A stretch of 42,693 bases of DNA from Candidatus Brocadiia bacterium (GCA_020051675.1 JAGVQN010000103.1:1-42693); one strand, 5' to 3'; positions 5,124-35,868 are shown, counted from the first letter of the stretch. Made by a program: numbers and translations. The notes: generated by a model not told the origin, from the sequence alone.

Positions 5124-5160
5124 AAAGAAGCGCCCCGACTTACGTCCGGGACGCTTCTTT
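5124..5160. terminator. Bidirectional intrinsic terminator between convergent nrnA and the giant coiled-coil gene
   Basis: Stem aaagaagcgccccg / cgggacgcttcttt (one mismatch) with a 9-nt loop, followed by a T-run on the plus strand. Confidence 0.75.
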
Positions 5161-5161
5161 T

Positions 5162-8100
5162 TTATCTGTTCCGATTTTTAAGCATATCTTTGCTGTTGTT
5201 CAGCCACAGTTCCACCTGGGCGCGTTTGGGGTCGTCTTTCGGAGATAATTCAAGGTATTTTGTGTAGCTGACAATCGCATCCTCCGGGCGGTTCATGCTT
5301 TGGTGATAAAGCATGCCCAGATTATAATAGAAATCCCTGTCCATGGGATCTATCACGATGCCGTTTTTGTAAGCCTGTTCGGCTTCAAGATACATCTGGG
5401 CGCGCGTAAAGGCGACGCCGAGGTTGAAGTTAGCGTCTTTCTTGGTTTTATCTACCAGTTTGTTGGCCTGGCTTAAGCGCACACCGAGTTCCTGCACCTG
5501 GTTAATATAATCGGATTCTATCTTTTTTACTTCCTGGCTGACCTTTTCGTCGAAATCGAGTTTCAAGGCGGTCTTTTCCTTTTCCAGTTCCAGCGCCTTA
5601 TCGCGCAGGTCCATTTCTACCTTTCGCAATTCTTTGGAAGTAGCCCTTTCGTCATCCAATTGTTTTGTCAGGGAGCTGTTCCGGTCACGCAGGTCTTTGA
5701 GCGACTTTGTGGTTTCTTCGTCATGGTCTTTCAAAGAATTCTGCAGGTTAGTAAGTGTTTTATTGGTGTTTTCCAGCTTTGCGGTCAGCTCGGAAACCTG
5801 CCAGGTCAAGCCGCGGTTTTGTTCTTTCGTGGCGGTTAAATCTGTCTGGATTTTGTATTTCTCATCGCGTTCTTTTTGGATGACCTGGTTAAGGTCGGTG
5901 TCGGTGGTTTTAAGTTTGGTCTCAAGCTGGGAAATTTGCTTGTCAAGCTGGGTAATTTTATCCTTATAAGAGGAGTTGTCCCTTGAAAGACCGCTTGAAT
6001 AATCATTCAGCTGTTTAACCTGGTCTTCAAACCTTTTCTTGTCGGCATTTAGCGTTTTAAGCTGGGTGTTTAATTCCGTCATCTGGTCTTTCAGCGAGGT
6101 TTCAAGAGTAGCAACCTGTGCGGTCAGCTGGTTTTTGGACGTCTCCAGCTTGGTTTTTTCCCTGGTCAGGTCCGACAGCTGGTTTTGGGCGGACTCAAAT
6201 TGTTTTTCAACGGATTCCTTTTCCTTACTCACTTTCTTGATGGTTTCGTTAAGGTCGTATTTATCCTTCAGGACATCCAGCATTTTCTTGTTGGTTTCCT
6301 TCATGCTGTCGCTCAGCTTGGAGTTTTCCGCGATATATTTTTTCAGGTCCTGGTCTGTCTGGGCGATGATTTTTTCGTTCTGGGCGTTTGAGTTTTCCAG
6401 GCGGCTGACGTCCTTGGTCAAAACGGAGACCTTGTCCTGGCTGATTTTCCACTGGCTTAAGTATTCGTTCTTTTCGCTCATTTCTTTCCGTAAGGAAGCG
6501 GAAAGCTCATCGAGCTTATCGCGGTTTTCTTTTTCCAGATTGGCGATAGTCGTTGCCTGAAAAGTGTTTTTCTCGCGCAGGTCTTTGACATCCTGTGCCA
6601 GGCTATCCGCCATCGCCACTTTTTCGTTAAGCGAGGTTATCTGGTTCTTGGCGGAGTTAAGCTCCTGCCGGACAGATTGGTTTTCTTCGTGGGCGGTCAA
6701 CAGCGAGTTTTCCATATCTTTGATTATTTTCGCATTGGCCGTGATGGTGTTTTCCTGGGCCAAGGTTTTACCTTTAAGGTTGATTACTTCCTTATCCAAA
6801 TCAGCTAGGCGTTTTTGGGATTCGTTGAATTGCTTATAGTAAGTTTCCTTTTCCATCTTTTCCCGGCTTACGGAATCCGTCAAAGTGGAGACTTTCATAT
6901 TAAGCGAGGCGTTTTCCTCCCGGACCGTATTCATCTGCTTTAAATAGCTTTCTTTGTCTTTGATTTCGCGGGCAAGCGCATCCTTTTGCCTGTTCAGGTC
7001 GTTTTCCAAGGCGGCTATTTTATAAGTGGATTCTTGGAGCTGAGAGTAATACGCTAATTTTTGCTCCTGCTCTTTGGCGATATTTTTTACCAGGTCATCG
7101 CGTTCTTTTTGCAAGCGGTTTAATTGGTCTTGCAGTTGCGTTTTTTCGCGGGACGTTTGGGTTAGTTTGTCCTGAGTATCGTTTAATTCCTTGGTGTATT
7201 TATTTTTATCCGTTTTCCCCGATGTAATTTCTTTTTCGCAGTCGACGATGGATTTTTCCAGAGAGGAAACTCTTTCCTTTAAGGTATTATTTTCATGGGT
7301 CAGTTTATTGGCTTTTTCATCCGCTTTGGTGAAATCGGCGTAGACTTTCATCTTATCCGAGCGTTCAGCAGCCAATTTGTTGCTTACATCCTTTAAGTCG
7401 TTTTCCAGAACGGCTTTTTTGTTTTCCAGTAACGTGATTTCTTTGCTCATCGACTCGACTTTTAACCGGTTGGTATTATTTTCATCCGCTAAAACCGAGC
7501 AGTCCGATTTATATTTTTCCGCGGTTTTCTTTTGGCTTGAAAGCTCTTCGTTTAAACTGTTCAGCCGTTCCGCCAGCATGTTAACCTGTTTTAAAGCGGA
7601 TTCCTTTTCCGTTTCGGCGGTTCTTAAAGACCTGTTTAATTCGGTCGCTTCGGCCTGTGTGAAAAGCAGCCTTTCGTTTAATTTCGCGTTAGCGGCAGTT
7701 GTTTCGGTGACGGTTCTGTTGAGCGCGTCAATAGTCACCTGCAAAGAAAAGAGTTCCCGCTTGGCGTTTTCCAGCTGAGACTCGGTTTTGTTGTATTGAT
7801 TTATACTTTCGGTCATTCGCGCCTGAAGAGTTTCCTTGTCTTTTGTCAGGCGGTCGCGTTCCGCGGTCAAATCCTGGATGCTTCTGCTTGCTTGCGCCAA
7901 CTGGTCTTTTATTGAATGCAATTCGCCCGTCAGCTGGCGCTGTTCATTAGACCACTTATCCCGGTCTTCCTGGGCCTTTGCGGTGGTTTTTTCCAGGACT
8001 TGCTCCAGCCGCCTGAGCGTTTTGCTTGATTCGGTGTTTTCCGCGGACAGGCTGTTTATCGTTATGGTTTTATCCGAGTTTTCCTTTGTCAGTTGGGTCA

Positions 8101-10129
8101 GCTTCGTGGTATATTCCCTGTCTTTTTCCTCGAGAAGTTTCGCCAGGCGGTTACGTTCGGCTTGTTCGGACTTATAAGATTCCTTTAAAGCGTTATATTC
8201 CCTGGTTAAGCTTTGCTGGGTTCGCTCCGCGTCTTTTAAATCGTCATCAAGCTTTAATTTTACGGTTGTTTCGTTCTTCAGCTCGTTCTGGAGCTTATCA
8301 ATCGTTTTTTCAAGAGGGCTGATACGCGATTCCAAATAGGATTTATCTCTTTGGAGAGCGACAATATCGTTGCCTTTTTTTTGCAGGTCTGTATTAAGAT
8401 TATCCTTTTCTTTTTGAAGTTCCTTAGCCTGCGTTTGCAGCTTGTTTATTTCGGCGTTAAGGTTGGAATTCAGCTTTTCCTTTTCGCTGTTCAGGCGGGC
8501 CAGTTCCTGCTGCTGGGTTTTTATCTGCTCCTCAAAACGCTTCTTTTCCAGCGCCATTGTCTGCTCAAGGGTCGATTTTTCCCGTGTTAAGGTGTTTATT
8601 TGCATTTCGCTTTTGTTTAATTTATCTTGCAAGCTTGAGTTGAGGCTGTCTTTTTCTTTTTGAAGCTCCTTAGCCTGCGTTTGCAGCTTGTTTATTTCGG
8701 CGTTCAGGCTGGTGCTTAGCTTATCTTTTTCCGTATTCAGGCGCGATAGTTCCTGCTGATATGTTTTCGCCTGTTCTTCGGAGCGTTTCTTTTCCAGCGC
8801 GATTGTCTGCTCGAGAGTCGATTTTTCCCGCGTTAAGGTGTTTACCTGAATCTCGCTTTTGGCCGATTTATCCTGCATCTCTGATTTAAAGCTGTCCTTT
8901 TCTTTTTGCAGGTCTTTTACCTGTATTTGCAGCTTGTTTATTTCGGCGTTCAGGCCGGAGTTCAGCTTTTCTTTTTCGCTATTCAGGCGGGTCAGTTCCT
9001 GCTGCTGGTTTTTTATCTGTTCCTCAAAACGCTTCTTTTCGATGGCCATGTTTTGCTCGCTGGTCGATTTTTCCCGCGTTAAGGTGTTTACCTGAATCTC
9101 GCTTTTGGCCAATTTATCCTGCAGGTCCTGTTTAGTGCGTTCCGTATCCTTTAGTGATTTTGCCAGGCTCGAAAGATTTTCATCTTTGTCTTTATTTTGT
9201 TTGGCCAGCAGGCTGACTTTTTCGTTCGCCGCGGATAGCTCGTAAGTTAATTTCTCCATGGACGCTTCATTATCCTGGATTTTCTTTTCCATCTCCTTGG
9301 TTTTTTGGGTGAGTTGCTTTGAGGAATCCAGGCTTTTTACTAATTGGCTGTTGGCGTCCTTCAAGCTTTCTTTGGTCTGATTTAGTTCCTTTAAGCAAGA
9401 ATCCGATTTCGCGGTTTCTTTTTTGAGTTCTTCCGACAGCTTGGTTTTTTCCGCTGTTACGGAGGCAAGGTCATTTTGAGTTTGTTTGAGTTGGGTTAGC
9501 AGGCGGATTTTCTCCTCCGTTTCCTGCGATAATTTTCTTTCCAGGTCGTGTGTTTTAGACGAAGAAACCGACAAATCGCGCCGCAGCGTTTCAGTCTCCT
9601 TTTTCCCTTTTTGGAGTTCTGCCTGGATTGAATCCCTTTCGGCTTGAGTTCGGCCGAGCTGTTCCTTTACATCGGCTAGCTGCCGCTGTATATTGCGAAT
9701 GTCCTTTTCAAAAGTGCGCTGGACCTCAGCGATTATCTCATCGCGTTTTTTGGATACTTCTATTAAAAGCTGGTCCCTTTCCTTTGCTATTTGGTCCGTT
9801 TTGGTTTTTAGCTCATCCTTTTCCCTGACAAGCCGGTCCCGTTCAACGACAATATCCTTGGTTTGGCTGGCCAGTTTCTCGTTTTGGGAAAGCAGGTCAT
9901 TGTAAGATTTTTGCTTTGCGGACAAGGATTCTCCCATCGAGTTGTTGGCTAAGACGTATTTTTCCAGCTCAGCCTTTAACTGGTTGATTTTACCCTCTTG
10001 TTCTTTTTGGGTTGCTGTCAGGTGCTCTCCTGATTTATCAACCTGGGACATGAAATAGAAACAAAGGATGTTTACCAGGACGGTATAGATAATCAGTAAG
10101 ATTAACAGTGGGCGATTGAATTTACTCAT
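5162..10129 (-). CDS. Giant (1655 aa) membrane-anchored coiled-coil protein with C-terminal TPR repeats
   Basis: N-terminal basic stretch plus TM (RPLLILLIIYTVLVNILCFYF). About 1500 aa follow of K/E/Q/L-rich heptad-like sequence. The C-terminus is TPR-like (NLGVAFTRAQMYLEAEQAYKNG...YYNLGMLYHQ...YTKYLELSP). AAGGAG lies 7 nt upstream of the ATG. Confidence 0.85.
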   Translation of the reverse strand: MSKFNRPLLILLIIYTVLVNILCFYFMSQVDKSGEHLTATQKEQEGKINQLKAELEKYVLANNSMGESLSAKQKSYNDLLSQNEKLASQTKDIVVERDRLVREKDELKTKTDQIAKERDQLLIEVSKKRDEIIAEVQRTFEKDIRNIQRQLADVKEQLGRTQAERDSIQAELQKGKKETETLRRDLSVSSSKTHDLERKLSQETEEKIRLLTQLKQTQNDLASVTAEKTKLSEELKKETAKSDSCLKELNQTKESLKDANSQLVKSLDSSKQLTQKTKEMEKKIQDNEASMEKLTYELSAANEKVSLLAKQNKDKDENLSSLAKSLKDTERTKQDLQDKLAKSEIQVNTLTREKSTSEQNMAIEKKRFEEQIKNQQQELTRLNSEKEKLNSGLNAEINKLQIQVKDLQKEKDSFKSEMQDKSAKSEIQVNTLTREKSTLEQTIALEKKRSEEQAKTYQQELSRLNTEKDKLSTSLNAEINKLQTQAKELQKEKDSLNSSLQDKLNKSEMQINTLTREKSTLEQTMALEKKRFEEQIKTQQQELARLNSEKEKLNSNLNAEINKLQTQAKELQKEKDNLNTDLQKKGNDIVALQRDKSYLESRISPLEKTIDKLQNELKNETTVKLKLDDDLKDAERTQQSLTREYNALKESYKSEQAERNRLAKLLEEKDREYTTKLTQLTKENSDKTITINSLSAENTESSKTLRRLEQVLEKTTAKAQEDRDKWSNEQRQLTGELHSIKDQLAQASRSIQDLTAERDRLTKDKETLQARMTESINQYNKTESQLENAKRELFSLQVTIDALNRTVTETTAANAKLNERLLFTQAEATELNRSLRTAETEKESALKQVNMLAERLNSLNEELSSQKKTAEKYKSDCSVLADENNTNRLKVESMSKEITLLENKKAVLENDLKDVSNKLAAERSDKMKVYADFTKADEKANKLTHENNTLKERVSSLEKSIVDCEKEITSGKTDKNKYTKELNDTQDKLTQTSREKTQLQDQLNRLQKERDDLVKNIAKEQEQKLAYYSQLQESTYKIAALENDLNRQKDALAREIKDKESYLKQMNTVREENASLNMKVSTLTDSVSREKMEKETYYKQFNESQKRLADLDKEVINLKGKTLAQENTITANAKIIKDMENSLLTAHEENQSVRQELNSAKNQITSLNEKVAMADSLAQDVKDLREKNTFQATTIANLEKENRDKLDELSASLRKEMSEKNEYLSQWKISQDKVSVLTKDVSRLENSNAQNEKIIAQTDQDLKKYIAENSKLSDSMKETNKKMLDVLKDKYDLNETIKKVSKEKESVEKQFESAQNQLSDLTREKTKLETSKNQLTAQVATLETSLKDQMTELNTQLKTLNADKKRFEDQVKQLNDYSSGLSRDNSSYKDKITQLDKQISQLETKLKTTDTDLNQVIQKERDEKYKIQTDLTATKEQNRGLTWQVSELTAKLENTNKTLTNLQNSLKDHDEETTKSLKDLRDRNSSLTKQLDDERATSKELRKVEMDLRDKALELEKEKTALKLDFDEKVSQEVKKIESDYINQVQELGVRLSQANKLVDKTKKDANFNLGVAFTRAQMYLEAEQAYKNGIVIDPMDRDFYYNLGMLYHQSMNRPEDAIVSYTKYLELSPKDDPKRAQVELWLNNSKDMLKNRNR
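8384..9121 (-). repeat. Three in-frame tandem repeats of 246 bp (82 aa) inside the giant gene
   Basis: Units begin at 9121, 8875 and 8629 on the minus strand. Each starts QDK(L/S)(A/N)KSE(I/M)Q(V/I)NTLTREKST and ends ...LQKEKD. They are roughly three-quarters identical at protein level by eye. Confidence 0.9.
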
Positions 10130-10338
10130 AAAATCTCCTTAAATTAATCAATTCTATATTAAAGCGTCCCGATAAACATCGGGGCGCTCTTTGTTCATTA
10201 TAAATAAAGAAAAATCCTGTTTTACCGGCTGAAGCAAAAATGACAGTGGTTGCGCGAGCCGTGATTTTGCTTAAAAAGCTTATGTACATTAAATAACGAA
10301 AACGATCATTAAAACAAGTCAGCATCAAATATCCCTGG

Positions 10339-10366
10339 ATTATAGCTGTAATAACAAAGATTGCAA
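10339..10366 (-). promoter_or_regulatory. Candidate sigma70-type promoter (TTGCAA-16-TATAAT) for the giant gene, implying a ~200-nt leader
   Basis: The minus strand reads ttgcaatctttgttattacagctataat. A hairpin, agcgccccga-tgtttat-tcgggacgct (10163-10188), lies in the leader just before the RBS. Confidence 0.4.
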
Positions 10367-10418
10367 GAATTTCCCGATTATTCACTAATAGTTTTCCTTG
10401 CGCTATAGTTAAAACAGT

Positions 10419-12068
10419 TTATTTTATTTCTCTTATTTCTTGCGGCGCAGGGCGTTCTATTTCTCTCTGTTTGGTCATCCAGGAGGCATCCGCATCGCCC
10501 GAGATAATAAACGGAGTAAGGAAAATAACCGTTTCTGTTTTTATCTTAACCGTTCCGGTCTGGCGGAACATCGGTCCGATTAAGGGGATATCCTTGGCAA
10601 TCGGGATTCCGCCTTTGGATTCGCGGTCTTCATCCCTGATTAATCCGGCGATTACGATGGTGATGCCGTCTTTAATCATTACCGTGCAATCGACATTGGT
10701 TGTCTGGATTATCGGAATAGGGTTGCCCTGGGAGGTTTGCACCCTGTTAATAACCGAGCTTATTTCGGGAACTATATGCATGCTGATATAATTGTCGGCG
10801 TTAATGGTCGGAGTAACGACTAATTCAATCCCGACATCCAGGAACTGGACATTTTCCGCCACTGATTGTCCGCCCTGGGTTGTCGTAACGGTCGTGGTGA
10901 CATAAGCTTCGCGGCTGCCGACCATGAATTTTGCCAGTTCATTATTCTGCGTTGCTAATCTCGGGCTGGAGATAGTCCTGACCGAGCCGAACATGCTTAG
11001 GGCTTTCAGCGCGGTCGTAAAATTATCCGGAGGGATGGTTCCGACCGTCGCGGTCAGGGTATCGGACGGCTTAGAATCAATCGCCACTGGGAACGGGTAT
11101 TTGCCCACAAGGTGCAGCCCTTTCCACGCGGATTGCGTGCTGAAAACCTTTTCCCATTCAACCCCGAGGTAATAAGTATCGTTAAGTTGAACCTGCACCA
11201 TTCTGGCTTCAATCATTACCTGCCTGGGTTTTACATCTAATTCCCTGATAAGCTTGTCAATATCGTTAAGGTTTTCGGTGGTATCGGTAATAAAAAGCTT
11301 GTTGGTCTTATCATCCACTCTCATTGTTCCCACCGGTGTCAGCATGCCTGTTCGGGTAAACAATGCTTCGATGGTGCTTGCTTTAGCATGTTTTGGTTCA
11401 AACACTTTTGTTTCAAGAGGAATATCAATGCTTTTAATAACTTCCTCAACGATTTTCATCCTTTCGGGGAACGCAATAATAATCAGGTTTTGGGAAGCTT
11501 CATCTGGTGTAATGCTAGTTGTTTGTCCTATGAAGTCGGTGAGCACTGCTTTTAAAATTGCCGCGACTTGGCTAGGCTTAAGGTTTTTTAGTTTAACAAT
11601 CTTAAGCTGACGATTTTCGTTATACTGGCGGCCATAAAGCTGCTGGAAGCGGGCAGCGGACATTACATTAATAATATTACCTTTGATTTCCATCCCTAAA
11701 TCGTTGTTTATCAAGGCGATTTCCAAAAGGTCGCCGACGGTGATGTTTTTAAGTTGGCCTAAAAATATGGATAGTTTTGTCTCAACAATTTCCTGCGAAG
11801 CGACAATATCAAGTCTGCCCACCTCTGCGATGGTTTTCAGGAAACTCCTGATTTGCGGGTCTACCCATGTCATTTCAGGAAATTGAGTGGACAGGCCGGC
11901 TCTTATTCCCGGAGGCATTTGGTTTCCGTCTGTCGGAGTTATTTTCTCTAATCTGGAAGTAGCCGAAGATATCTCCTCCGCCGGCTGTATGTTATCCGCA
12001 GAGAATACTTTTCCGTTTACCAAAAGCAATGCCAGACAAATACCGATTAAAAACATTTCTTTTTTCAT
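10419..12068 (-). CDS. Secretin (PilQ/MshL/GspD family outer-membrane channel)
   Basis: Signal peptide MKKEMFLIGICLALLLVNGKVFSA. C-terminal secretin signature SKGGIPIAKDIPLIGPMFR...VIFLTPFII. GAGGAGGGG lies upstream of the ATG. Confidence 0.8.
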   Translation of the reverse strand: MKKEMFLIGICLALLLVNGKVFSADNIQPAEEISSATSRLEKITPTDGNQMPPGIRAGLSTQFPEMTWVDPQIRSFLKTIAEVGRLDIVASQEIVETKLSIFLGQLKNITVGDLLEIALINNDLGMEIKGNIINVMSAARFQQLYGRQYNENRQLKIVKLKNLKPSQVAAILKAVLTDFIGQTTSITPDEASQNLIIIAFPERMKIVEEVIKSIDIPLETKVFEPKHAKASTIEALFTRTGMLTPVGTMRVDDKTNKLFITDTTENLNDIDKLIRELDVKPRQVMIEARMVQVQLNDTYYLGVEWEKVFSTQSAWKGLHLVGKYPFPVAIDSKPSDTLTATVGTIPPDNFTTALKALSMFGSVRTISSPRLATQNNELAKFMVGSREAYVTTTVTTTQGGQSVAENVQFLDVGIELVVTPTINADNYISMHIVPEISSVINRVQTSQGNPIPIIQTTNVDCTVMIKDGITIVIAGLIRDEDRESKGGIPIAKDIPLIGPMFRQTGTVKIKTETVIFLTPFIISGDADASWMTKQREIERPAPQEIREIK

Positions 12069-12131
12069 ACTTTTAACCCCTCCTCTCTACCAGACATTGC
12101 CTTACAACGGCAGGATTCAGTAGACACCTTC

Positions 12132-12878
12132 TTATTGATAAAACCCAAGAACCATTTCTTTATTAGAGTTTTCTTCTATTAATGTAACCGAATCTTCCTT
12201 GACTTCTCGTATTCGGAAAGAGTATTTGAAGTCCCCCCCTGGCGCAACGATGGTTCCTTGGATTCTTGTTTTGCCGTTAAGGGTTAATACATAAGATTCA
12301 CTTCCTTTTTCTATGGTCACCGCGGCTTTTTCTTTATCTATTTTAATAATACCGACTAATTTATAAGTCTTTCTTAATTGTTCTATCAACGGGTCAACTT
12401 GAATTGGCGGAGGAGGCGGGTTTTCAATTGTTATAGGAGTATTAGTAACCGGAGCGGGTATTTCCGGTTTTGGCTTTTCCGGCGGCACAAATATGTTTCT
12501 TTCTTTTAAGGGTTGAGTGAAATGTATGATATCTTCGATTTCGGGCAATACGATGTTAGGGGTGGCGGTTTTCTTGAAATTATCCAGTTCTAGCATCTTT
12601 CTTGTAATATCGGCCTGGGCATGGCTTATTTGCCAGACCAGATAAAGCGCTAATAGGATGCTTACTAATGTAAGAAAGCGATTTGCTAATTTAAGCGAGA
12701 TTGTTTTAACTGAGAAGAATTTAGAAAGCGAACCCGCGCGCGATAAAAACGAAAGCGCAGTTGTTTCTTCTTTAGGCGTGGGTTTTTCCACCACGGTCGG
12801 CTCTGATGCCGGAGCGGCGGTTTTATCCTCGCCCTCAATCAGCCTTAACAATTGTTCTTCCGGAGATAGATTTTCCAT
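12132..12878 (-). CDS. Bitopic membrane protein with a proline-rich linker and a PilP/GspC-HR-like C-terminal beta domain (inferred secretin partner)
   Basis: TM FLTLVSILLALYLVWQI, linker PPEKPKPEIPAPV...PPPPPIQ, and C-terminal YKLVGIIKIDKEKAAVTIEKGSESYVLTLNG...VKEDSVTLIE. AGGTGA lies upstream of the ATG. The functional call is inference only. Confidence 0.6.
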   Translation of the reverse strand: MENLSPEEQLLRLIEGEDKTAAPASEPTVVEKPTPKEETTALSFLSRAGSLSKFFSVKTISLKLANRFLTLVSILLALYLVWQISHAQADITRKMLELDNFKKTATPNIVLPEIEDIIHFTQPLKERNIFVPPEKPKPEIPAPVTNTPITIENPPPPPIQVDPLIEQLRKTYKLVGIIKIDKEKAAVTIEKGSESYVLTLNGKTRIQGTIVAPGGDFKYSFRIREVKEDSVTLIEENSNKEMVLGFYQ

Positions 12879-12891
12879 AAATCACCTGTCT

Positions 12892-13767
12892 CTAAGCAAT
12901 CATCCCTTTTATGCCGGCCGTTGTCTTATTGGGAATCGACCAGCCGTTATTTATTTCCGATTCCATGATTTCCTTTACCGTACGGCCGTCTACGATGGCC
13001 TTACTTTTCATGACGACCGCTTTAAGCGCCTTATGGCATAAAAGCGTTACCTGCCTGGGATACCCTTTGGTATAATGGTATATCTCCCTTAAGGCGTCTT
13101 CGCCGAACAGATTAACCGTGCCGGTATAACCGGCTTGTTTAATGCGGAAGTGTATCATTTCGGCCATTTCTTTTTCGTCCATAGCGTTAAGCGTATACTT
13201 AAAGCTGATGCGGTCCATCAGGTTAGCCATCGGAGCCAGTTTTGAATAAAGTTCAAGCTGGCCGAATAAAACCAGTTGGAGAAGCTTATACTCATTGGTT
13301 TCGTAGTTTAAAAGCACCCGCAAAACCTCCAGCGAGGTGTTTTCCAGCTTCTGGGCCTCGTCAATAATTAAAACCACGGTTTTACTCTGTTCCACCACCT
13401 TCTGGAACAGAAAATGTTCTAACGCTTCCTTTAATTCCACGCGGGAGGTATTATGGCTGTCCGCGTTCACCCCAAAAAGCCTTATCAGGGAGGCTAAGAA
13501 AATATGCTCGGTATCATAGGTCGGGTCAAATATCATATGGAATTCAAATCCTTCCCGTTCTTTAAGGCTTTGGACGAGTTTCCTGGAAAGAGTCGTTTTC
13601 CCCGTCCCGATATCTCCCATCACCACGCTTAATCCCCTCCGGAGCCTCAATTCAATCAATAGATTGGTCATAACCGTTTTATGGCCGCTGGACAGGTAGA
13701 AAAACTCCGGGTCCGGGCTTGTCGAAAACGGCTCTTTTTCCAAACCTAACGTTTTATAATAACTCAT
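12892..13767 (-). CDS. ExeA/GspA/MshM-like AAA ATPase
   Basis: N-terminus YYKTLGLEKEPFSTSPDPEFFY, Walker A GDIGTGKTT and Walker B VLIIDEAQ. At 291 aa it is the MshM-size form, with no TM or peptidoglycan-binding extension. Confidence 0.75.
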   Translation of the reverse strand: MSYYKTLGLEKEPFSTSPDPEFFYLSSGHKTVMTNLLIELRLRRGLSVVMGDIGTGKTTLSRKLVQSLKEREGFEFHMIFDPTYDTEHIFLASLIRLFGVNADSHNTSRVELKEALEHFLFQKVVEQSKTVVLIIDEAQKLENTSLEVLRVLLNYETNEYKLLQLVLFGQLELYSKLAPMANLMDRISFKYTLNAMDEKEMAEMIHFRIKQAGYTGTVNLFGEDALREIYHYTKGYPRQVTLLCHKALKAVVMKSKAIVDGRTVKEIMESEINNGWSIPNKTTAGIKGMIA

Positions 13768-13925
13768 AATTCTTATAGCGCCTTATCGCTATATTAAGTA
13801 TACAACATCCGGATGCCTTTTGTCAACTCCAAGCTGTTTTTCTTAGTAAAATTTTTATAGACATCTTTCAGTTATTTCCGTATCATATATATCGGATATT
13901 TACGGATAAGACATAAATAAAAATT

Positions 13926-14696
13926 ATGAAAAATACGGATTCTTCCAATAAAGAAGCCTCGGCCTGGGCTATAATCGAGAAAATACGTGACGAGCGCGGC
14001 ATTCCCAAAAAGACTTTGGCCGAGCGTTTAGGCATAAATTATAGCTATCTGGTTGATCTTTTGAACGGGCGTTATACCAGCAAGATTGACAGCCACAAAA
14101 TCCAGATTCTTTCGGATGTTTTCCGTATTTCCACGAATAAACTGCTTAAATTCCTGAATGCAAAGAATAACATGGCTAATATTCCGGATTTTCTGGGAGA
14201 TACCCGTCCCGACGTAACGTCGGGGCAGGCGGAAGCGGTCATCTATTCTAAACCAGAGCTCCAAAATCCAGAATTGCCCGCTGCCTTTCCAGTCGCATCA
14301 CGTATAAACCTGATTCGGCATAAATCAGAGGCGGTTATCACCCCTGCGTCAAAACTGATGGGTTTCCCGCAGTCTTTTCCTAATACGGAAGAATACAGCT
14401 TGAAATGCACCAATAATCCTGATATTATCGCCATAAAGCTGGATGATGATTCCATGCACCCCCCTTTCCCGGTCGGGACTATTTTCTTTGTGGACACAAG
14501 GCGCAAGGCGGCGTTAAAAAACCTGGTTTTTACCATAATCCAGGACGGGCGCAGCTGGTTTAGGGAGTGGTATTACACCCTTGACACAAAGGAGATAATC
14601 CTAAAGGCATATAATCCCGGTTACGATTATATCCAGATTCTTATTGAGGATATAGTAAAAATGTATCCTATGGTCGGGATGGAAATTAACCCATAA
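13926..14696 (+). CDS. XRE-family HTH fused to an S24 (LexA/CI-like) peptidase domain
   Basis: HTH KKTLAERLGINYSYLVDLLNG. C-terminal IAIKLDDDSMHPPFPVGTIFFVD and a later ILKAYNP supply candidate Ser and Lys. It is divergent from the secretin block. Confidence 0.7.
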   Translation: MKNTDSSNKEASAWAIIEKIRDERGIPKKTLAERLGINYSYLVDLLNGRYTSKIDSHKIQILSDVFRISTNKLLKFLNAKNNMANIPDFLGDTRPDVTSGQAEAVIYSKPELQNPELPAAFPVASRINLIRHKSEAVITPASKLMGFPQSFPNTEEYSLKCTNNPDIIAIKLDDDSMHPPFPVGTIFFVDTRRKAALKNLVFTIIQDGRSWFREWYYTLDTKEIILKAYNPGYDYIQILIEDIVKMYPMVGMEINP

Positions 14697-19380: not shown

Positions 19381-20970
19381 TTACGGGGTGGTTTTATCGA
19401 CAAAAATCCCGCCGGTCACCTCGGCTAAGCTTCTCAGGAAGTTGATATCCGGCAATCCATCCTTTGCCTGTACCTGGGGAGGGACTCCTTTGGAAGAGCC
19501 GACTCCGACCGTGTTTATCTTTATTTTCCTGGTTTCGTTAATCTTTTTTAGTTCGCTTACGATTGTCGGCCGGTCGGTTATTTTTCCCGCGGTCGGCACG
19601 CCGTCGCTTACCAGGAAAATCGTATCCGCGCCGCCGCTTCCTGCGGAAACGTATCCGCTTTTGTCAATGGTTACTGTCTTGTTTTTACCCGAGCCCTGCT
19701 CGTTTAGCTTATAAGCTGTTTCCAGCGCGTCAAAAGTCGCTGTATTTCCGTTCGGCAGCTGCTTATCTATTTCCTGTATCGCTTCCAGCTTGTTTGCCGC
19801 CGTTGCCGGGATGAGCGATTCTTTCCATGGTATCACCCCGCTGTGGAAAAATATTATCGTGAAGTAAACGGAAGAATCAATATTGTAAATCGTATTAATC
19901 AATTCCCTTTTTGCCGCTTCAATCCTTTTGGAGATAGTCCGTTTGTCTATTTCTTCTTTCTTGTTTTTCAGCTCTTCCGCTAATTTATCGTCGGCCGGCT
20001 TGCCGTCTTTGCCCGTGAATCTCGGCTTAAGCTGTTTCTTCTTGCTTTCCTCGTCTTCCGTCCATTCGGCGCCCCAATCCATGCTTCCGGAAATGTCCAG
20101 GATGAAAACAATCCGGGTTGAAGTGACCTTTACCCCGTAGTAAACCGCCGTATAACTGGCATCCTCGTCCGGATTTGAGGGGTTGGCTTCCGTTCCCTGT
20201 TTCTTTTTATTCCACCAGGACATCCAGGCAGAGCCCTGTAATCCGCAATCGACCCCGGTCAGCTTTTTTAAGACTGATGCCACCTCATCCCTGGGCCGTC
20301 CCTCGAGGTTTTTCCCCATTAATGCCTGAATCAGCGGCTCGATTAGCGATTGGTCATTCAGTTTATTCAAATATTCGGTGACGGCGATTTTTACTTCCCA
20401 TATTTCTTCCGAATTAAGCAGTTTACAAGCCGATTCCGCGCCTTCCCGCGCGCCCAGCGAGCCGAGCGCATCGAAAACCGCCAGCTTGATTTTAGGGCTT
20501 TTGTCTTCAATCAGTTCGACCAGCGCCGTTACTTTCTTGGGGGAGGGTATCCCGCCCAGGCCTTTTATTATGTTAAAGCGGGCTCGCCAGTTCAAGCCGG
20601 CGTTCTTGGCGTGTTTTATCAGCTTCTCAACCGCCTTTTCCGTGGTGATTTTCCGAAGGCCCTGCACGCAGGCATCAATAATGTTTGCGTCTATCCTGTC
20701 CTCGAATTTGTTGTTTGCCAGGTTGATTTCATCGGCAATGATTTTTACCAATAAATCAACCGCTTCTGATTCTGCCTCCGGATAGAGCGCATCGGCCAGC
20801 CCCTGGACAGCCCGGAGCCTTTCCCCGTGCTTCTTGCTGTTGTTATTGGCCTGGAAATCCTGCTTGGCTTGTGCCCATTTGGCTTTATCCTGCGCGTTGC
20901 CAGGTTGCGAAAGGACGAAGATGCTTAGAAAAACCGTTATCGCCAGGATGCTTTTATGGAGAGATGGCAT
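19381..20970 (-). CDS. Secreted HEAT-repeat plus von Willebrand factor A (VWA) domain protein
   Basis: Signal peptide, HEAT-like helical repeats in the N-terminal half, and a MIDAS-type VFILDISGSM motif. Confidence 0.7.
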   Translation of the reverse strand: MPSLHKSILAITVFLSIFVLSQPGNAQDKAKWAQAKQDFQANNNSKKHGERLRAVQGLADALYPEAESEAVDLLVKIIADEINLANNKFEDRIDANIIDACVQGLRKITTEKAVEKLIKHAKNAGLNWRARFNIIKGLGGIPSPKKVTALVELIEDKSPKIKLAVFDALGSLGAREGAESACKLLNSEEIWEVKIAVTEYLNKLNDQSLIEPLIQALMGKNLEGRPRDEVASVLKKLTGVDCGLQGSAWMSWWNKKKQGTEANPSNPDEDASYTAVYYGVKVTSTRIVFILDISGSMDWGAEWTEDEESKKKQLKPRFTGKDGKPADDKLAEELKNKKEEIDKRTISKRIEAAKRELINTIYNIDSSVYFTIIFFHSGVIPWKESLIPATAANKLEAIQEIDKQLPNGNTATFDALETAYKLNEQGSGKNKTVTIDKSGYVSAGSGGADTIFLVSDGVPTAGKITDRPTIVSELKKINETRKIKINTVGVGSSKGVPPQVQAKDGLPDINFLRSLAEVTGGIFVDKTTP

Positions 20971-22465: not shown

Positions 22466-23731
22466 TTAGGGCTGCTTATCCGGCATATTAAACGCCGGTG
22501 ACAGAATAAGCAAGGCGTACGCGGTGCCGTAGGCTTTGTAATAGTTATACAACGGATAGTCCCACCAGGAACCGTCTTTTTCCTGGCAGGGCAGGATCGT
22601 CCTTGCCAGCGCCTGCCAATAAGGTTTTTGTTCTTCCGCAGGCAATTCCGCAATGACCTCTGATGCATAGAAATGCCCGAAGAAGAAATAATATCCGGAC
22701 GTGGCATACCATGATTCATGCGGAGAAGGGCGGTATTTCCCGGCTTCCATAAAGTGATGCTCCTTGAACATCCAATCAAGCCCGAGTTTTAAATCCGCCA
22801 GCGTTACCTCATCTTTATAGCGAAAAAGGGCAAGATTGCAGGGTTGGGAACGGCCCAGAGAGCCTTTGGGTCGGTTGACATGCCATGCCGGATACAAACG
22901 GCTGTCAGTCCCATAACTATAACTCTTTTCCGGAGTGCGCATCCGTTTAAGGCATTTTACGGCTGATGAAATAGTGCCGGGCGAAACCGTTAAGCCTGCC
23001 TTTTGCGCATCCCAAAACGCGCACAAAGCCGCGCCGGTCATGAAACTTGTCGATTCAAAGCCCGGAGGCTTTTGATAGCCATAACCGAAATCATAATAAC
23101 CAAACCCGCCGTCGGCGTATTGCATATGCTGTAACATGCGCAGCCACTTATTCGCCGAATCGACAAGCTCTTTTCTGGGGATATCCAAACCCTCATAGAC
23201 AGTCGCCCTGGAAAGGCACTGTGTAACGTAGAGCAAAGCCCAGGTATGATACAAAACATCCGGTGTCGAACGGCACTCAGGCGGTTGCTTCATCAGGAAG
23301 CGAATCCCTTTAGTCAAGGCTGCACGCCGTTCTGTTTCCTTTCCGGCGCAATCTTTCATCAGCGCCATGCAGCAAAGCGCGCTGGTGGCATTGCGAAAGG
23401 CATCAAATGAGGCAATCGTCCCCAGGTAAATTATTTCATAAGGGAAATCAAAAGAGCCCCAGGAGCCATCCGGATTCTGCGTCTTAAGCAGATAATCGGT
23501 CCCTCTATCCAGGGCGCGCTTGATATCTTTGGATGAAGCGGAAACAGACTCATCAAAAGCCGAGCCGATACGGATAGTCCTCTCACCGGCGCAGGAGACA
23601 ACCAGGGACAAAGCCAGCAAAACTGCAATTAACCGCAACTTCAGCACGAAGCTCAAGCTTCGACTCCCGTAGCAACGGGAATTACATTTTATTCTTATGC
23701 CTAAGATACGATTCAATCCTAAATTTCGCAT
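22466..23731 (-). CDS. Secreted/lipoprotein prenyltransferase-squalene cyclase repeat (alpha/alpha toroid) protein
   Basis: Lipobox-like LSLVVSCAG. Repeats QNPDGSWG, QYADGGFGYY and QEKDGSWWDY. Confidence 0.65.
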   Translation of the reverse strand: MRNLGLNRILGIRIKCNSRCYGSRSLSFVLKLRLIAVLLALSLVVSCAGERTIRIGSAFDESVSASSKDIKRALDRGTDYLLKTQNPDGSWGSFDFPYEIIYLGTIASFDAFRNATSALCCMALMKDCAGKETERRAALTKGIRFLMKQPPECRSTPDVLYHTWALLYVTQCLSRATVYEGLDIPRKELVDSANKWLRMLQHMQYADGGFGYYDFGYGYQKPPGFESTSFMTGAALCAFWDAQKAGLTVSPGTISSAVKCLKRMRTPEKSYSYGTDSRLYPAWHVNRPKGSLGRSQPCNLALFRYKDEVTLADLKLGLDWMFKEHHFMEAGKYRPSPHESWYATSGYYFFFGHFYASEVIAELPAEEQKPYWQALARTILPCQEKDGSWWDYPLYNYYKAYGTAYALLILSPAFNMPDKQP

Positions 23732-23745
23732 GGCTTAATCCTTGG

Positions 23746-35477: not shown

Positions 35478-35752
35478 TGAGTTACGCTCTTTCCTACCAT
35501 CCTGATATTCATAAAGAAGACCTGCCCAACATTCCGAGAAACATGCAAACCAGGATTCGTAACGCGATACAAGAACGGTTATTAAATGACCCGTTAAAAT
35601 ACGGGGAGCCGCTAAAGAGAAGCCTGCAAGGGTACAGGAAATTAAGAGTAGGTGATTACAGGGTGGTTTATCGGCTTGAGAAAGAAAATATCATTATCCT
35701 GAAAATAGGACACAGAAAAGAAGTATACAGTAGAACCCATTTAAGGATTTGA
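35477..35752 (+). CDS. relE: RelE/ParE-family type II toxin
   Basis: 91 aa, with LRVGDYRVVYRLEKENIIILKIGHRKEVY typical of RelE/StbE. Confidence 0.8.
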   Translation: MSYALSYHPDIHKEDLPNIPRNMQTRIRNAIQERLLNDPLKYGEPLKRSLQGYRKLRVGDYRVVYRLEKENIIILKIGHRKEVYSRTHLRI

Positions 35753-35772
35753 AGCGGCGGGGAACGCCTTAA

Positions 35773-35868
35773 GAAGAAGACGGATTTACCGAAAGGCTTT
35801 ATCAGGCGCATAACCGGGCAAGGAATACCATACCGAATCCTGAAAAGCCCAAGGGCGGGATTAAATAA
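35773..35868 (+). pseudogene. 3' fragment (31 codons, no start) of a second four-helix-bundle/suffix-domain gene
   Basis: EEDGFTERLYQAHNRARN... parallels EEGGFTERLYQ(A)RNRARN of the intact gene. DNA 35771-35828 aligns with 34951-34985 plus 35032-35055. Confidence 0.65.

What the first reader, a model, noticed from the sequence alone, without database searches (positions are those of the whole stretch)
5162..13767. Orphan secretin module co-oriented with a 1655-aa membrane-anchored coiled-coil/TPR giant
Four consecutive minus-strand genes with short gaps and good RBSs encode:
- an ExeA/MshM-like AAA ATPase;
- a bitopic protein with a proline-rich linker and a PilP/GspC-HR-like beta domain;
- a secretin;
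- after a 289-bp gap with its own candidate promoter and a leader hairpin, a giant protein with one N-terminal TM, about 1500 residues of coiled-coil-like sequence and a C-terminal TPR module.

In MSHA-type pilus loci, the secretin MshL sits with the ATPase MshM and the TPR protein MshN (established). This block has the same three domain types. However, the TPR protein carries a coiled coil that, at about 0.15 nm per residue and if continuous, would be on the order of 200 nm long, far more than a periplasm width. No pilin, prepilin peptidase, platform protein or PilB/GspE ATPase is present anywhere in the 42.7 kb. This may be an uncharacterised envelope or surface-fibre apparatus built around a secretin.
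Basis: partly seen in the sequence, partly recalled or inferred. Interest (0 to 1): 0.7.

Follow-up and report, generated by a model that had tools for sequence, protein, structure and literature searches.

The report
Secretin module with giant periplasmic tether
A small group of ultra-small Omnitrophota bacteria keeps the outer-membrane pore part of a type II secretion / type IV pilus-like machine next to a 1,300-1,800-residue membrane-anchored coiled-coil protein with a TPR tip. This protein is a greatly lengthened version of a short helper found beside the same pore in relatives, and nobody has described it.

Summary
Four co-oriented minus-strand genes encode an ExeA/GspA/MshM-type P-loop ATPase, a bitopic GspB/GspC/PilP-type HR-domain protein, a secretin with N0-N1-N3 domains, and a 1655-aa protein with an N-terminal TM helix, about 1450 residues of heptad coiled coil, and two TPRs.

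The module recurs with a divergent HTH/S24-like regulator in six other lineages, at 41-86% secretin identity. Every complete or nearly complete copy of the giant there is 1284-1799 aa.

It is not a free-standing new apparatus. In other Omnitrophota the same ATPase-HR-secretin trio closes a complete gspE-F-G-H-I-J-K-L-M operon. In sister lineages the secretin is followed by a short (341-466 aa) exported coiled-coil-TPR protein. In MSHA-like pilus loci, the coiled-coil and TPR parts are two adjacent genes beside the secretin.

Best reading: a detached secretin assembly and anchoring sub-module. Its coiled-coil-TPR accessory has gained a conserved inner-membrane anchor and a four- to five-fold longer rod, about one cell diameter if continuous.

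Which machine uses this secretin, and what the long rod does, remain untested. I rate it a new variant of a known kind, of moderate interest.

The parts
13926..14696 (+). Divergently transcribed regulator of 256 aa: an HTH_3 DNA-binding domain plus a Peptidase_S24-like (LexA/CI-type) C-terminal domain.
   Evidence: Pfam gives HTH_3 at 3.6e-7 and Peptidase_S24 at 1.5e-7. An orthologue sits divergently next to the ATPase gene in L001, L004/L089, L005, L090 and L091. The DDSM serine is conserved, but no lysine is invariant, so self-cleavage is doubtful.
13768..13925 (.). Divergent control region. It holds promoter-like TTGACA-18-TATACT (13826-13797, minus strand) for the ATPase operon, TAGACA-17-TATCAT (13858-13886, plus strand) for the regulator, the palindrome TATAGCG-N6-CGCTATA (13774-13793), and TCCG-N12-CGGA.
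   Evidence: The promoter scan gives 11/12 and 10/12 matches. By my count from the two sequences printed, the region is roughly 93% identical to L001, against 79-85% for the flanking coding DNA. The palindrome arms are kept while the spacer differs. The function of these sites is inferred.
12892..13767 (-). Cytoplasmic P-loop ATPase of 291 aa, of the ExeA/GspA/MshM type. It has no TM segment and no peptidoglycan-binding domain.
   Evidence: Pfam AAA_22 at 3e-21. The best NCBIfam hit is TIGR03015 at 185 bits, below its 324.5 cutoff. Walker A GDIGTGKT and Walker B IIDEAQ are visible in the sequence. It is 61-67% identical to the L004 and L005 orthologues and about 28% to the AAA_22 protein of the MSHA-like locus L006.
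12132..12878 (-). Bitopic protein of 248 aa. It has a cytoplasmic N-terminal helix with the motif PEEQLLRLIE, one TM helix (about residues 68-84), a Pro-rich linker, and a periplasmic beta domain (about 160-248) of the GspB/GspC/PilP 'HR' type.
   Evidence: This copy has no Pfam hit alone. Of 19 proteins at the same position in related loci, 13 hit T2SSC (best 2.6e-8) and 9 hit T2SSB. The family profile hits the GspC HR domain 3OSS_C at 2.9e-5 and PilP 3JC8 at 7.9e-5. AF2 models the C-domain at pLDDT 85-92, but Foldseek against the PDB gave no significant match.
10419..12068 (-). Secretin of 549 aa with a signal peptide, N0, N1, N3 and the secretin core. It has no lipobox and no AMIN domain.
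   Evidence: Pfam Secretin at 3e-41 and Secretin_N twice. NCBIfam PilQ, GspD and MshL models all score below their cutoffs. The family profile hits GspD and PilQ equally (1e-57). Positions 62-136 match the PilQ fragment 4AR0 (128 residues; the N0 domain, from my knowledge of that entry) at 2e-15. Positions 63-271 match GspD N-terminal (N0-N1) fragments.
10130..10418 (-). Non-coding leader of the giant gene. It holds a promoter-like site (10366-10339), a terminator-like hairpin (10163-10188) and the RBS AAGGAG.
   Evidence: The 87-aa ORF here shows no codon-position bias. A hairpin of different sequence lies at the same place in L001, and another lies in the L004 gap. L005 has only a 25-nt gap, so the leader is not universal.
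5162..10129 (-). Giant protein of 1655 aa: an N-terminal TM anchor, about 1450 residues of coiled coil, and a C-terminal two-repeat TPR head.
   Evidence: Orthologues: L004/L089 (1799 aa), L005 (1284 aa), L091 (about 1770 aa with a scaffold gap), L092 (at least 1415), L090 (at least 763) and L001 (at least 345). The C-terminal 500-765 residues align at 31-36% identity.
10049..10108 (-). TM anchor of the giant (residues 8-27) with the conserved motif Y-x-V-x-x-N-x-L-C-F.
   Evidence: In an alignment of seven N-termini, Y15, C23 and F24 are invariant and N20 is present in 6 of 7. The adjacent coil is barely conserved. K3 and R6 precede the helix, so the positive-inside rule places the N-terminus in the cytoplasm (inference).
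8403..9123 (-). Tandem repeat of 246 bp (82 aa), 2.9 copies at 81% identity, inside the N-proximal half of the coiled coil.
   Evidence: TRF. This shows recent lengthening of the rod by duplication.
5165..5569 (-). Conserved C-terminal 135 residues: the ESDYI segment plus a near-consensus TPR pair and a capping helix (KYLELxPxDxxRAxVExW).
   Evidence: Alignment A1 has 35 invariant columns across three giants. The region is homologous to the 205-220-aa signal-peptide TPR proteins of Omnitrophota MSHA-like loci. Against the PDB it matches only generic or consensus TPRs.
5129..5155 (-). Terminator hairpin just after the giant's stop codon. It lies between convergent genes and is a near copy of the leader hairpin.
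   Evidence: The pattern AGCGYCCCGR-N-YCGGGRCGCT occurs twice in the window, against 0 expected. The fold has an energy of -30.7 kcal/mol.

Best explanation
**What it is.** This is a conserved five-gene module of an Omnitrophota lineage.
- A divergent HTH/S24-like regulator faces an operon encoding three proteins: a cytoplasmic ExeA/GspA/MshM-type ATPase, a bitopic HR-domain protein of the GspB/GspC/PilP kind, and a GspD/PilQ-type secretin with an N0 domain.
- The fourth gene follows after a leader that carries a terminator-like hairpin. It encodes a 1655-aa protein anchored in the inner membrane by a conserved TM helix. About 1450 residues of coiled coil and a TPR head project into the periplasm.

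**The trio.**
- Shown: the three proteins are the outer-membrane-channel sub-module of a type II secretion / type IV filament machine.
- Inferred by analogy with ExeAB-ExeD and OutB-OutD: the HR domain docks on secretin N0, ties the pore to the inner membrane, and with the ATPase helps the secretin multimer to assemble.

**The giant.**
- Shown: it is the elongated, membrane-anchored form of a short exported coiled-coil-TPR protein that accompanies the secretin in sister lineages. In MSHA-like pilus loci the same two parts exist as two separate genes.
- Inferred: the TPR head binds the secretin or another outer-envelope partner, and the TM helix contacts an inner-membrane partner. The protein would then act as a tether or scaffold for the secretin.
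- Inferred: the rod would be about 220 nm long if continuous, roughly the diameter of these cells. It therefore cannot be a simple radial strut. It must lie along the periplasm or fold back on itself.

**Missing core.** Inferred: the machine's ATPase, platform and pseudopilins are encoded elsewhere in the genome.
For: **Domain assignments.**

**Synteny.**
- The order regulator / ATPase / HR protein / secretin / giant holds in six further lineages at 41-86% secretin identity, in different chromosomal surroundings.

**The trio in complete operons.**
- The same ATPase type (290-380 bits), an HR protein and the secretin close complete operons: T2SSE, T2SSF, T2SSG, N_methyl pseudopilins, T2SSJ, T2SSK, a PilM/PilN fusion, and PilO/T2SSM.
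- This is seen in L010, L013, L016, L020, L027, L030 and L031.

**Short orthologues.**
- Coiled-coil-TPR proteins of 341-466 aa lie directly after the secretin in L009, L011, L014 and L024. These loci also lack E/F genes nearby.
- The secretins of these 'orphan' loci group apart from the operon type in an NJ tree.

**Split version.**
- The MSHA-like loci L006 and L008 have a 473-aa TM+coiled-coil gene overlapping a 218-220-aa TPR gene, both beside the secretin.

**Periplasmic location.**
- Basic residues precede the giant's TM helix.
- The homologous TPR proteins have signal peptides, and the short orthologues have cleavable-looking signal peptides.

**Coiled-coil character.**
- One search shows growth of the rod by tandem duplication.

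**Published model.**
- GspB's HR domain binds secretin N0, anchors the pore to the inner membrane, and works with a cognate GspA. Some GspAs lack the periplasmic region (PMC9239104).
- Most Omnitrophota are ultra-small cells that pass 0.45-um and collect on 0.2-um filters (PMC10066038).
Against: - The window's own HR-domain protein gives no significant family hit alone. Its AF2 model found no PilP or GspC match by Foldseek (best E 0.056). The assignment rests on the family profile and on gene position.
- The TPR head is near-consensus and matches only generic TPRs. Its partner is unknown, and similarity to the pilotins Tgl and PilW is weak and non-specific.
- No interaction has been tested.
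- No core T2SS/T4P genes occur in 42.7 kb here or on the relatives' contigs. The partner machine is therefore assumed, not seen.
- Continuity and oligomeric state of the coil are unknown. The AF2 single-sequence model had pLDDT 51 and is unreliable.
- A 220-nm rod is hard to reconcile with a plain tether role.
Confidence: 0.5

Rival explanations
1. Surface fibre. The module is a self-contained apparatus. The coiled coil is threaded through its own secretin, so the TPR head is displayed up to about 200 nm from the cell. It would serve as a non-pilus tether for host or prey contact, while the TM helix stays in the inner membrane.
For: - The rod is far longer than any periplasm is wide, and heptads are nearly uninterrupted.
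- The giant and secretin are strictly co-conserved.
- No pilins or E/F genes lie nearby.
- The short orthologues carry cleavable-looking signal peptides and so could be released.
- Omnitrophota are thought to be host-dependent or predatory (PMC10066038).
Against: - The homologous TPR and coiled-coil proteins in full pilus loci look like ordinary periplasmic accessories.
- In relatives the trio belongs to complete T2SS-like operons.
- The module encodes no extrusion motor other than a small cytoplasmic AAA_22 protein.
- No known secretin passes a membrane-anchored protein.
Confidence: 0.12
2. Secreted or periplasmic cargo-handling factor. The coiled-coil-TPR protein does not serve the secretin itself. 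Instead it acts as a chaperone, receptor or substrate connected with the very large Laminin_G_3 proteins encoded just downstream in several relatives.
For: Multi-LamG proteins of at least 413, 2396, 1111 and 1535 aa follow the module in L005, L091, L011 and L014. Published work notes T2SS-like loci next to giant Omnitrophota genes (bioRxiv 10.1101/2023.11.21.568195).
Against: No LamG gene follows the module in the window or in L004/L089, where the next genes are convergent and encode DHH or DUF3160 proteins. The association is therefore not required.
Confidence: 0.13
3. Cytoplasmic landmark, like FimV or HubP. The topology is the reverse of that proposed, and the coiled coil and TPR lie in the cytoplasm. 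There they organise the cell pole or the cytoplasmic side of the machine.
For: FimV and HubP are large TM proteins with C-terminal TPRs that promote secretin assembly or polar placement (my own knowledge of the family, not tested here).
Against: - K3 and R6 precede the TM helix, and the residues after it are net acidic.
- The homologous TPR proteins and the short orthologues have signal peptides.
- The giant has no LysM or other periplasmic N-terminal domain.
Confidence: 0.08
4. Polysaccharide-export nozzle. The secretin exports an exopolymer. The ATPase belongs to the PEP-CTERM/EPS-associated group, and the long coil acts like a chain-length or co-polymerase protein.
For: The best NCBIfam hit of the ATPase is TIGR03015, the XrtA/PEP-CTERM system-associated ATPase. 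Secretins have been reported as slime nozzles (PMC12475490).
Against: The TIGR03015 score is far below cutoff (185 against 324.5). No glycosyltransferase, exosortase, Wza or Wzc genes occur in the window. Relatives place the trio in T2SS operons.
Confidence: 0.05

Closest known systems
GspA-GspB-GspD (ExeA-ExeB-ExeD of Aeromonas; OutB-OutD of Dickeya)
   Same: - A P-loop ATPase gene sits next to a single-TM protein whose periplasmic HR domain binds the secretin N0 domain. Together they help the secretin to assemble and anchor it to the inner membrane.
- Some GspAs lack the periplasmic part, as this one does (PMC9239104).
- Here the gene order is ATPase, HR protein, secretin, and the family gives T2SSB/T2SSC and GspC-HR/PilP profile hits.
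   Different: - The ATPase has no TM segment or peptidoglycan-binding domain.
- The HR protein has a conserved cytoplasmic PEExLLxLI helix and, in this lineage, an insertion in the beta domain.
- The phylum is Omnitrophota, not Proteobacteria.
- A coiled-coil-TPR gene follows the secretin.
MSHA-type pilus loci (MshL secretin, MshM ATPase, MshN TPR protein)
   Same: The same three domain types are encoded together. Omnitrophota MSHA-like loci (L006, L008) also carry a TM+coiled-coil gene between the secretin and the TPR gene, and that TPR is homologous to the giant's tip.
   Different: - No MshE, MshG, MshI/J/K or pilins lie nearby.
- The MshL model scores below its cutoff (163 against 250).
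- The window's ATPase and secretin are only 28-30% identical to those of L006. They are closer to the T2SS-operon type by phmmer bit score.
- Here the coil and the TPR are fused and greatly lengthened.
TPR pilotins and secretin helpers (PilF/PilW, Tgl, TadD)
   Same: Each is a small TPR module dedicated to one secretin. The short orthologues give weak hits to the Tgl and PilW models.
   Different: Those proteins are outer-membrane lipoproteins with 4-6 TPRs and no coiled coil. This protein has no lipobox, an inner-membrane anchor, only about two TPRs, and a 1450-residue rod. The hits are far below cutoff, and the TPR is near-consensus.
CpoB/YbgF of the Tol-Pal system
   Same: The architecture is the same: an export signal, a coiled coil, and a C-terminal TPR domain in the periplasm.
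   Different: CpoB has about 260 aa, is soluble, and sits in the tol-pal operon. The TIGR02795 hit is only 18-25 bits against a cutoff of 90. No tol-pal genes are nearby.
T2SS-like loci beside giant genes of Omnitrophota (West-Roberts et al. 2023 preprint; 2026 complete-genome preprint)
   Same: The phylum is the same. Those loci contain gspD/E/F-type genes next to very long ORFs.
   Different: Those giants are multi-domain proteins of tens of thousands of residues with many TM helices and enzymatic domains. Neither paper's main text contains the words 'coiled' or 'secretin' (word counts).

Membership tests
Secretin superfamily (GspD/PilQ type) | C-terminal secretin pore domain (PF00263) | tested here: met
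   Pfam Secretin at 3.2e-41 over residues 357-522. The family profile against PDB gives GspD and PilQ at 1e-57.
Secretin superfamily (GspD/PilQ type) | Periplasmic N0 plus N1/N3 ring-building domains | tested here: met
   Secretin_N twice. Profile positions 62-136 match the PilQ fragment 4AR0 at 2e-15, and positions 63-271 match GspD N0-N1 fragments at 1e-10.
Secretin superfamily (GspD/PilQ type) | Assignment to one subfamily (GspD, PilQ, MshL, HofQ or SctC) by the curated equivalog score | tested here: not met
   All NCBIfam subfamily models score below cutoff: PilQ 208 against 284, GspD 207 against 351, MshL 163 against 250.
GspA/ExeA/MshM ATPases | P-loop NTPase of AAA_22 type with Walker A and DEAQ-type Walker B | tested here: met
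   AAA_22 at 3e-21. GDIGTGKT and IIDEAQ are in the sequence. TIGR03015 gives 185 bits over the full length, below its cutoff.
GspA/ExeA/MshM ATPases | Archetypal GspA: a C-terminal TM segment and a periplasmic peptidoglycan-binding region | tested here: not met
   The protein has 291 aa, with no TM segment and no further domain. It resembles MshM and the Alteromonas-type GspA that lack this region (PMC9239104).
GspB/GspC/PilP HR-domain proteins | A single TM helix followed by a periplasmic HR (homology region) beta domain | tested here: inconclusive
   At family level the test is met. T2SSC hits 13 of 19 members, T2SSB hits 9 of 19, GspC HR 3OSS scores 2.9e-5 and PilP 3JC8 scores 7.9e-5. The window copy alone has no hit, and its AF2 model has no significant Foldseek match.
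GspB/GspC/PilP HR-domain proteins | Direct binding of the HR domain to secretin N0 | not testable with these tools
   This needs complex prediction or biochemistry.
Complete T2SS or T4P/MSHA locus | GspE/PilB ATPase, GspF/PilC platform, (pseudo)pilins with a class-III signal peptide, and a prepilin peptidase in the locus | tested here: not met
   No scanned ORF (every long non-overlapping ORF of at least 110 aa) hits these families. No class-III motif occurs in any frame. These genes are present around the orthologous trio in other Omnitrophota.
TPR pilotins (PilF/PilW/Tgl/TadD) | Outer-membrane lipoprotein (lipobox cysteine) made of TPRs | tested here: not met
   TPRs are present, but the N-terminus is an uncleaved TM anchor without a lipobox. 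The Tgl and PilW models hit the short orthologues at 17-44 bits (Tgl) and 18-31 bits (PilW, in three of the four), against cutoffs of 225 and 154.
CpoB/YbgF | Score above the TIGR02795 cutoff, and a tol-pal gene context | tested here: not met
   The score is 18-25 bits against 90. No tol or pal genes are in the window.
LexA/CI-type self-cleaving repressors (the neighbouring regulator) | A Ser-Lys catalytic dyad in the S24 domain | tested here: inconclusive
   The serine of the DDSM motif is invariant, but no lysine is invariant among four orthologues.

The most novel reading that the evidence does not exclude
The membrane-anchored rod, about 200 nm long, passes through its own secretin and displays the TPR head outside the cell. 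This would be a pilin-free, secretin-dependent tether of roughly one cell diameter, used by a nanobacterium to reach a host. A less radical variant is that the rods form a periplasmic girdle that fixes where secretins sit on a cell about 0.2 um across.
Probability: 0.12. Interest if true: 0.85.

Novelty: new variant of a known kind. Interest (0 to 1): 0.55.

Why it matters
Secretins normally get help from small pilotins or from GspAB-type factors. A conserved 1,300-1,800-residue inner-membrane-anchored coiled coil dedicated to a secretin has not been described.

The length series gives a natural experiment on what rod length does in a cell envelope:
- about 190 aa, coil only;
- 341-466 aa, coil plus TPR;
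- 1284-1799 aa, with a TM anchor.

Omnitrophota are uncultured, host-dependent nanobacteria whose surface machines are thought to mediate attachment or predation. This module is therefore a concrete target for cryo-ET and metatranscriptomics.

The work also corrects a tempting over-reading. The 'orphan' secretin block is a detached piece of a T2SS-like system, not a new apparatus.

Tried and rejected
1. **Exact look-up of the window's secretin in public assemblies.** It is not on record.
2. **Word-index homologue search with the 248-aa protein.** It found only 3 sequences. The AF2 alignment was therefore shallow, and Foldseek against the PDB gave only fatty-acid-binding-protein-like noise. The HR assignment had to come from an alignment of 19 positional homologues instead.
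3. **Representative-library phmmer with the giant's last 135 residues.** It returned 31,509 hits dominated by multi-TPR proteins, so it was uninformative. A PDB profile search likewise returned consensus TPRs.
4. **Metagenome scan with the C-terminal alignment.** The 3-sequence alignment only re-found the L004 organism as L089.
5. **AF2 of giant residues 456-1655 from a single sequence.** It gave pLDDT 51. The model is all-helical, but the break positions are not trustworthy.
6. **The 87-aa ORF in the 289-nt gap as a fifth gene.** Rejected, because it shows no codon-position bias.
7. **Long-range pairing or concerted evolution of the 5' and 3' hairpins across relatives.** This is not seen in L004, L005 or L091.
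8. **Rfam and tRNA scans of the window.** Both found nothing.
9. **Genomes holding both an operon-type and an orphan-type secretin.** None appears among the 23 Omnitrophota loci returned.

Full report
**1. Observation**

The four minus-strand ORFs exist at the stated coordinates.
- Pfam gives AAA_22 (3e-21) for the 291-aa protein. It gives Secretin (3e-41) and two Secretin_N domains for the 549-aa protein.
- In the 1655-aa protein, Pfam finds TPR_1, TPR_2 and TPR_11 at residues 1566-1632, plus only non-specific coiled-coil hits. The 248-aa protein has no hit.
- NCBIfam places the secretin equally near PilQ, GspD and MshL, all below their cutoffs. It places the ATPase nearest TIGR03015, at 185 bits against a cutoff of 324.5.

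Gaps between the genes are 13, 63 and 289 nt. Three of the four starts have strong Shine-Dalgarno motifs.

The giant has one proline and 13 glycines between residues 8 and 1594. It shows a 3.5-residue hydrophobic period from about residue 40 to 1470, with long stable heptad registers. It also has an 82-aa tandem repeat of 2.9 copies.

The rest of the window is housekeeping: M48 peptidase, a radical-SAM enzyme, a DHH phosphoesterase, an ECF sigma factor, PdxA, YebC, a Ser/Thr kinase, iPGM, IspF, ParAB, ClpB and an ACC carboxyltransferase. The scanned ORFs cover every long non-overlapping ORF of at least 110 aa. None of them hits a GspE/PilB, GspF/PilC, prepilin-peptidase or pilin family. No class-III signal-peptide motif occurs in any reading frame.

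**2. The 289-nt gap**

The gap contains a promoter-like TTGCAA-16-TATAAT and an 11-bp GC-rich hairpin 34 nt before the giant's start codon.
- The promoter-like site is identical in the 86% relative L001. The hairpin there has a different stem sequence but still pairs.
- L004 also has a hairpin in its gap. L005 has only a 25-nt gap.
- The 87-aa ORF that fills the gap is not a gene. Its substitutions against L001 fall 17/17/19 over the three codon positions. The secretin shows 54/33/213 and the ATPase 24/8/102.
- A near copy of the hairpin sits just after the giant's stop codon. These are the only two copies in the window, against none expected.
- Both copies are followed by TTTAAT, so the leader copy looks like a partial terminator or attenuator. 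That function is inferred.

**3. Relatives**

The secretin's homologues are almost all from Omnitrophota MAGs. Some are labelled Planctomycetota by their submitters.

I fetched the contigs of the closest ones. The table lists the gene that follows the secretin in each.

| Locus | Secretin identity to window | Protein after the secretin |
|---|---|---|
| L001 | 86% | at least 345 aa (contig end) |
| L092 | 62% | at least 1415 aa (contig end), after an inserted PAS gene |
| L090 | 60% | at least 763 aa (contig end) |
| L004 = L089 | 53% | 1799 aa |
| L005 | 43% | 1284 aa |
| L091 | 41% | about 1770 aa, across a scaffold gap |

- All six carry the ATPase, a protein of about 250 aa and the secretin, wherever the contig reaches those positions. 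The ATPase gene is interrupted by a scaffold gap in L091 and lies off the contig in L092.
- A divergent HTH/S24-like regulator is present wherever the contig reaches that far.
- The giants share an N-terminal TM helix with an invariant Y...C-F and a near-invariant Asn.
- They also share a C-terminal 135-residue block with 35 invariant columns, and 500-765 alignable residues of the C-proximal coil.
- The N-proximal coil is variable and carries the tandem repeat.
- The flanking genes differ between lineages, so the synteny is not simply inherited neighbourhood.

**4. What the trio is**

I scanned one genome per GTDB species with a secretin alignment. This gave 23 Omnitrophota loci, which I annotated against reference proteins.
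- In L010, L013, L016, L020, L027, L030 and L031, the window-type ATPase (290-380 bits), a bitopic protein of 160-240 aa and the secretin end an operon.
- In L010, Pfam calls that operon T2SSE(+MshEN), T2SSF, T2SSG, two N_methyl pseudopilins, T2SSJ, T2SSK, a PilM-PilN fusion and PilO/T2SSM_b. A small MerR-like gene then precedes the ATPase.
- L026 and L028 show permuted versions of the same operon.

I aligned the 19 proteins found between ATPase and secretin.
- They share a conserved cytoplasmic PEExLLxLI helix, one TM helix, an (R/K)(N/D)(I/L)F motif and a C-terminal beta domain.
- Thirteen of the 19 hit Pfam T2SSC and nine hit T2SSB.
- The profile hits the GspC HR domain that was crystallised with GspD N0-N1 (3OSS_C, 2.9e-5) and M. 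xanthus PilP (3JC8, 7.9e-5).
- The window's copy has an insertion of about 13 residues in this domain and is not significant on its own.
- Its AF2 model is confident for residues 160-248 (pLDDT 85-92), but Foldseek found no PDB match.

The secretin has the N0 domain that such HR domains bind.

The published model fits. The GspB HR domain binds secretin N0, anchors the pore to the inner membrane, and works with a cognate GspA. Some GspAs lack the periplasmic region (PMC9239104).

**5. What the giant is**

Three observations place it.
- (a) In L009, L011, L014 and L024 the secretin is followed directly by a protein of 341-466 aa. It has an N-terminal export signal, 200-300 residues of coiled coil and the same TPR end (...HYNLGxLYDDYL...KYLxLxP...). 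These loci, like the window, have no E/F genes within reach.
- (b) In operon-type loci the secretin is sometimes followed by a TM+coiled-coil protein of about 190 aa without TPRs (L013, L018, L026).
- (c) The giant's TPR block is homologous to 205-220-aa signal-peptide TPR proteins. These lie in complete MSHA-like pilus loci with this order: PilM/N, a 203-aa gene, a 150-aa gene, secretin, a 473-aa TM+coiled-coil gene, the TPR gene (overlapping the previous stop), MshE, AAA_22, T2SSF, PilZ, pilin (L006, L008).

A coiled-coil protein, with or without a TPR, beside the secretin is therefore a recurrent Omnitrophota theme. In the window's lineage the two parts are fused.
- The signal peptide has become a conserved uncleaved TM anchor.
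- The rod has grown four- to five-fold, partly by tandem duplication.

An NJ tree of the secretins separates the operon-type sequences from the 'orphan plus coiled-coil-TPR' sequences.

**6. Topology and geometry**

- Basic residues precede the giant's TM helix.
- The homologous TPR proteins and the short orthologues have signal peptides.
- The bulk of the protein is therefore most likely periplasmic.

At about 0.15 nm per residue, 1450 residues of continuous coil would span about 220 nm. Omnitrophota cells are mostly ultra-small, passing 0.45-um filters and collecting on 0.2-um filters (PMC10066038). The short orthologues' coils would be 30-45 nm long, on the order of the width of a periplasm by my own estimate. 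The giants clearly exceed that. Continuity could not be established, because the AF2 single-sequence model is all-helical but has pLDDT 51.

**7. Mechanism proposed**

Shown:
- the domain identities;
- the conserved gene order;
- the relation to full T2SS-like operons, to the short coiled-coil-TPR proteins and to the split MSHA-type genes.

Inferred:
- The ATPase and HR protein act like GspA and GspB on the secretin.
- The TPR head binds the secretin or another outer-envelope partner.
- The conserved TM helix contacts an inner-membrane component.
- The long rod lies along or folds within the periplasm as a scaffold or spacer.
- The leader hairpin lowers giant expression relative to the trio.
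- The S24-like regulator controls the divergent promoters through the conserved palindromes at 13774-13793 and nearby.
- The machine's core is encoded elsewhere.

**8. Rivals**

- **Surface fibre through the secretin.** Not excluded. It lacks any positive evidence and conflicts with the ordinary periplasmic look of the homologues.
- **Cargo-related role.** Suggested by huge Laminin_G_3 proteins just downstream in L005, L091, L011 and L014. These are absent in the window and in L004.
- **Cytoplasmic FimV-like landmark.** Contradicted by the topology evidence.
- **EPS nozzle.** Rests only on a sub-threshold TIGR03015 hit.

**9. Comparison and novelty**

- The trio works like GspA-GspB/C-GspD and belongs to those superfamilies. 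It meets no curated equivalog threshold, however, and the ATPase lacks the archetypal periplasmic part.
- The module is not an MSHA locus.
- The giant is neither a pilotin (no lipobox) nor CpoB.
- Searches of the open literature gave no description of a coiled-coil-TPR partner of Omnitrophota secretins. The two papers on Omnitrophota giant genes mention neighbouring T2SS-like genes, but their main texts contain neither 'coiled' nor 'secretin'.
- I rate this a new variant of a known kind: a known secretin sub-module with an undescribed, extreme accessory protein.

**10. Verdict**

- Interest is moderate (0.55). The strangeness lies in the conserved rod, about one cell diameter long if continuous, tied to a secretin in nanobacteria.
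- The main uncertainty is the missing genome context and the absence of any interaction evidence.

Noticed in passing
window 5129-5155 and 10163-10188: The giant ORF is bracketed by two near-identical GC-rich palindromic hairpins (AGCGYCCCGR-loop-YCGGGRCGCT, each followed by TTTAAT). One lies in the 5' leader and one just after the stop codon. They are the only two copies in 42.7 kb, against 0 expected. The arms of one are complementary to the arms of the other, so long-range 5'-3' pairing is formally possible.
   Followed up: partly
window 36947-37129 (and the surrounding 35.1-40.9 kb): A 22-bp-periodic array of CCCCTATTA-type direct repeats (5-8 copies) lies just upstream of an unannotated 260-aa ORF (37382-38164) and looks like iterons. 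The surrounding region has low GC (0.39-0.43) and only small or unannotated ORFs. It also holds a partial duplication of the tail of the 23S_rRNA_IVP-like gene (34861-35061 matching 35750-35828), a 36-nt inverted repeat (38211-38246 / 39436-39471) bracketing two ORFs, and a WapI-like immunity gene (40239-40685). It may be an integrated element.
   Followed up: no
L005:16838-18077, L091:10924-14300, L011:12569-15903, L014:12831-17436: In four relatives the module is followed on the same strand by a very large multi-Laminin_G_3 protein (at least 413, 2396, 1111 and 1535 aa, all cut by contig ends). These are possible cargo or partners. No such gene follows the module in the window or in L004.
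   Followed up: partly
L092:2516-3484: One relative (62% secretin identity) has a 322-aa gene inserted between secretin and giant. It encodes a PAS domain, a TM helix, a coiled coil and a small beta domain, which hints at sensory control of the module.
   Followed up: no
window 13768-13925: The divergent control region between the ATPase and the S24-like regulator is more conserved with the 86% relative (roughly 93%, by my count from the sequences printed) than the coding DNA around it (79-85%). It contains the perfect palindrome TATAGCG-N6-CGCTATA over the predicted transcription start, plus TCCG-N12-CGGA. These are candidate operators.
   Followed up: partly
L010:7902-8132, L013:8151-8372 and the equivalent position in L020, L021, L026, L027, L028, L030, L031: In T2SS-operon-type loci a 72-84-aa gene immediately precedes the ExeA-like ATPase. 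The L010 copy gave MerR-family hits when scanned, and the L013 copy is visibly homologous to it. The giant-bearing lineage instead has the divergent HTH/S24-like regulator, so the regulator was swapped when the sub-module was detached.
   Followed up: no
window 22466-25236 and 19381-20970: Upstream housekeeping genes include a prenyltransferase/squalene-hopene-cyclase-like repeat protein (421 aa), a 496-aa protein with no Pfam hit, and a HEAT-repeat/VWA protein (529 aa). The HEAT/VWA gene is syntenic in L001.
   Followed up: no
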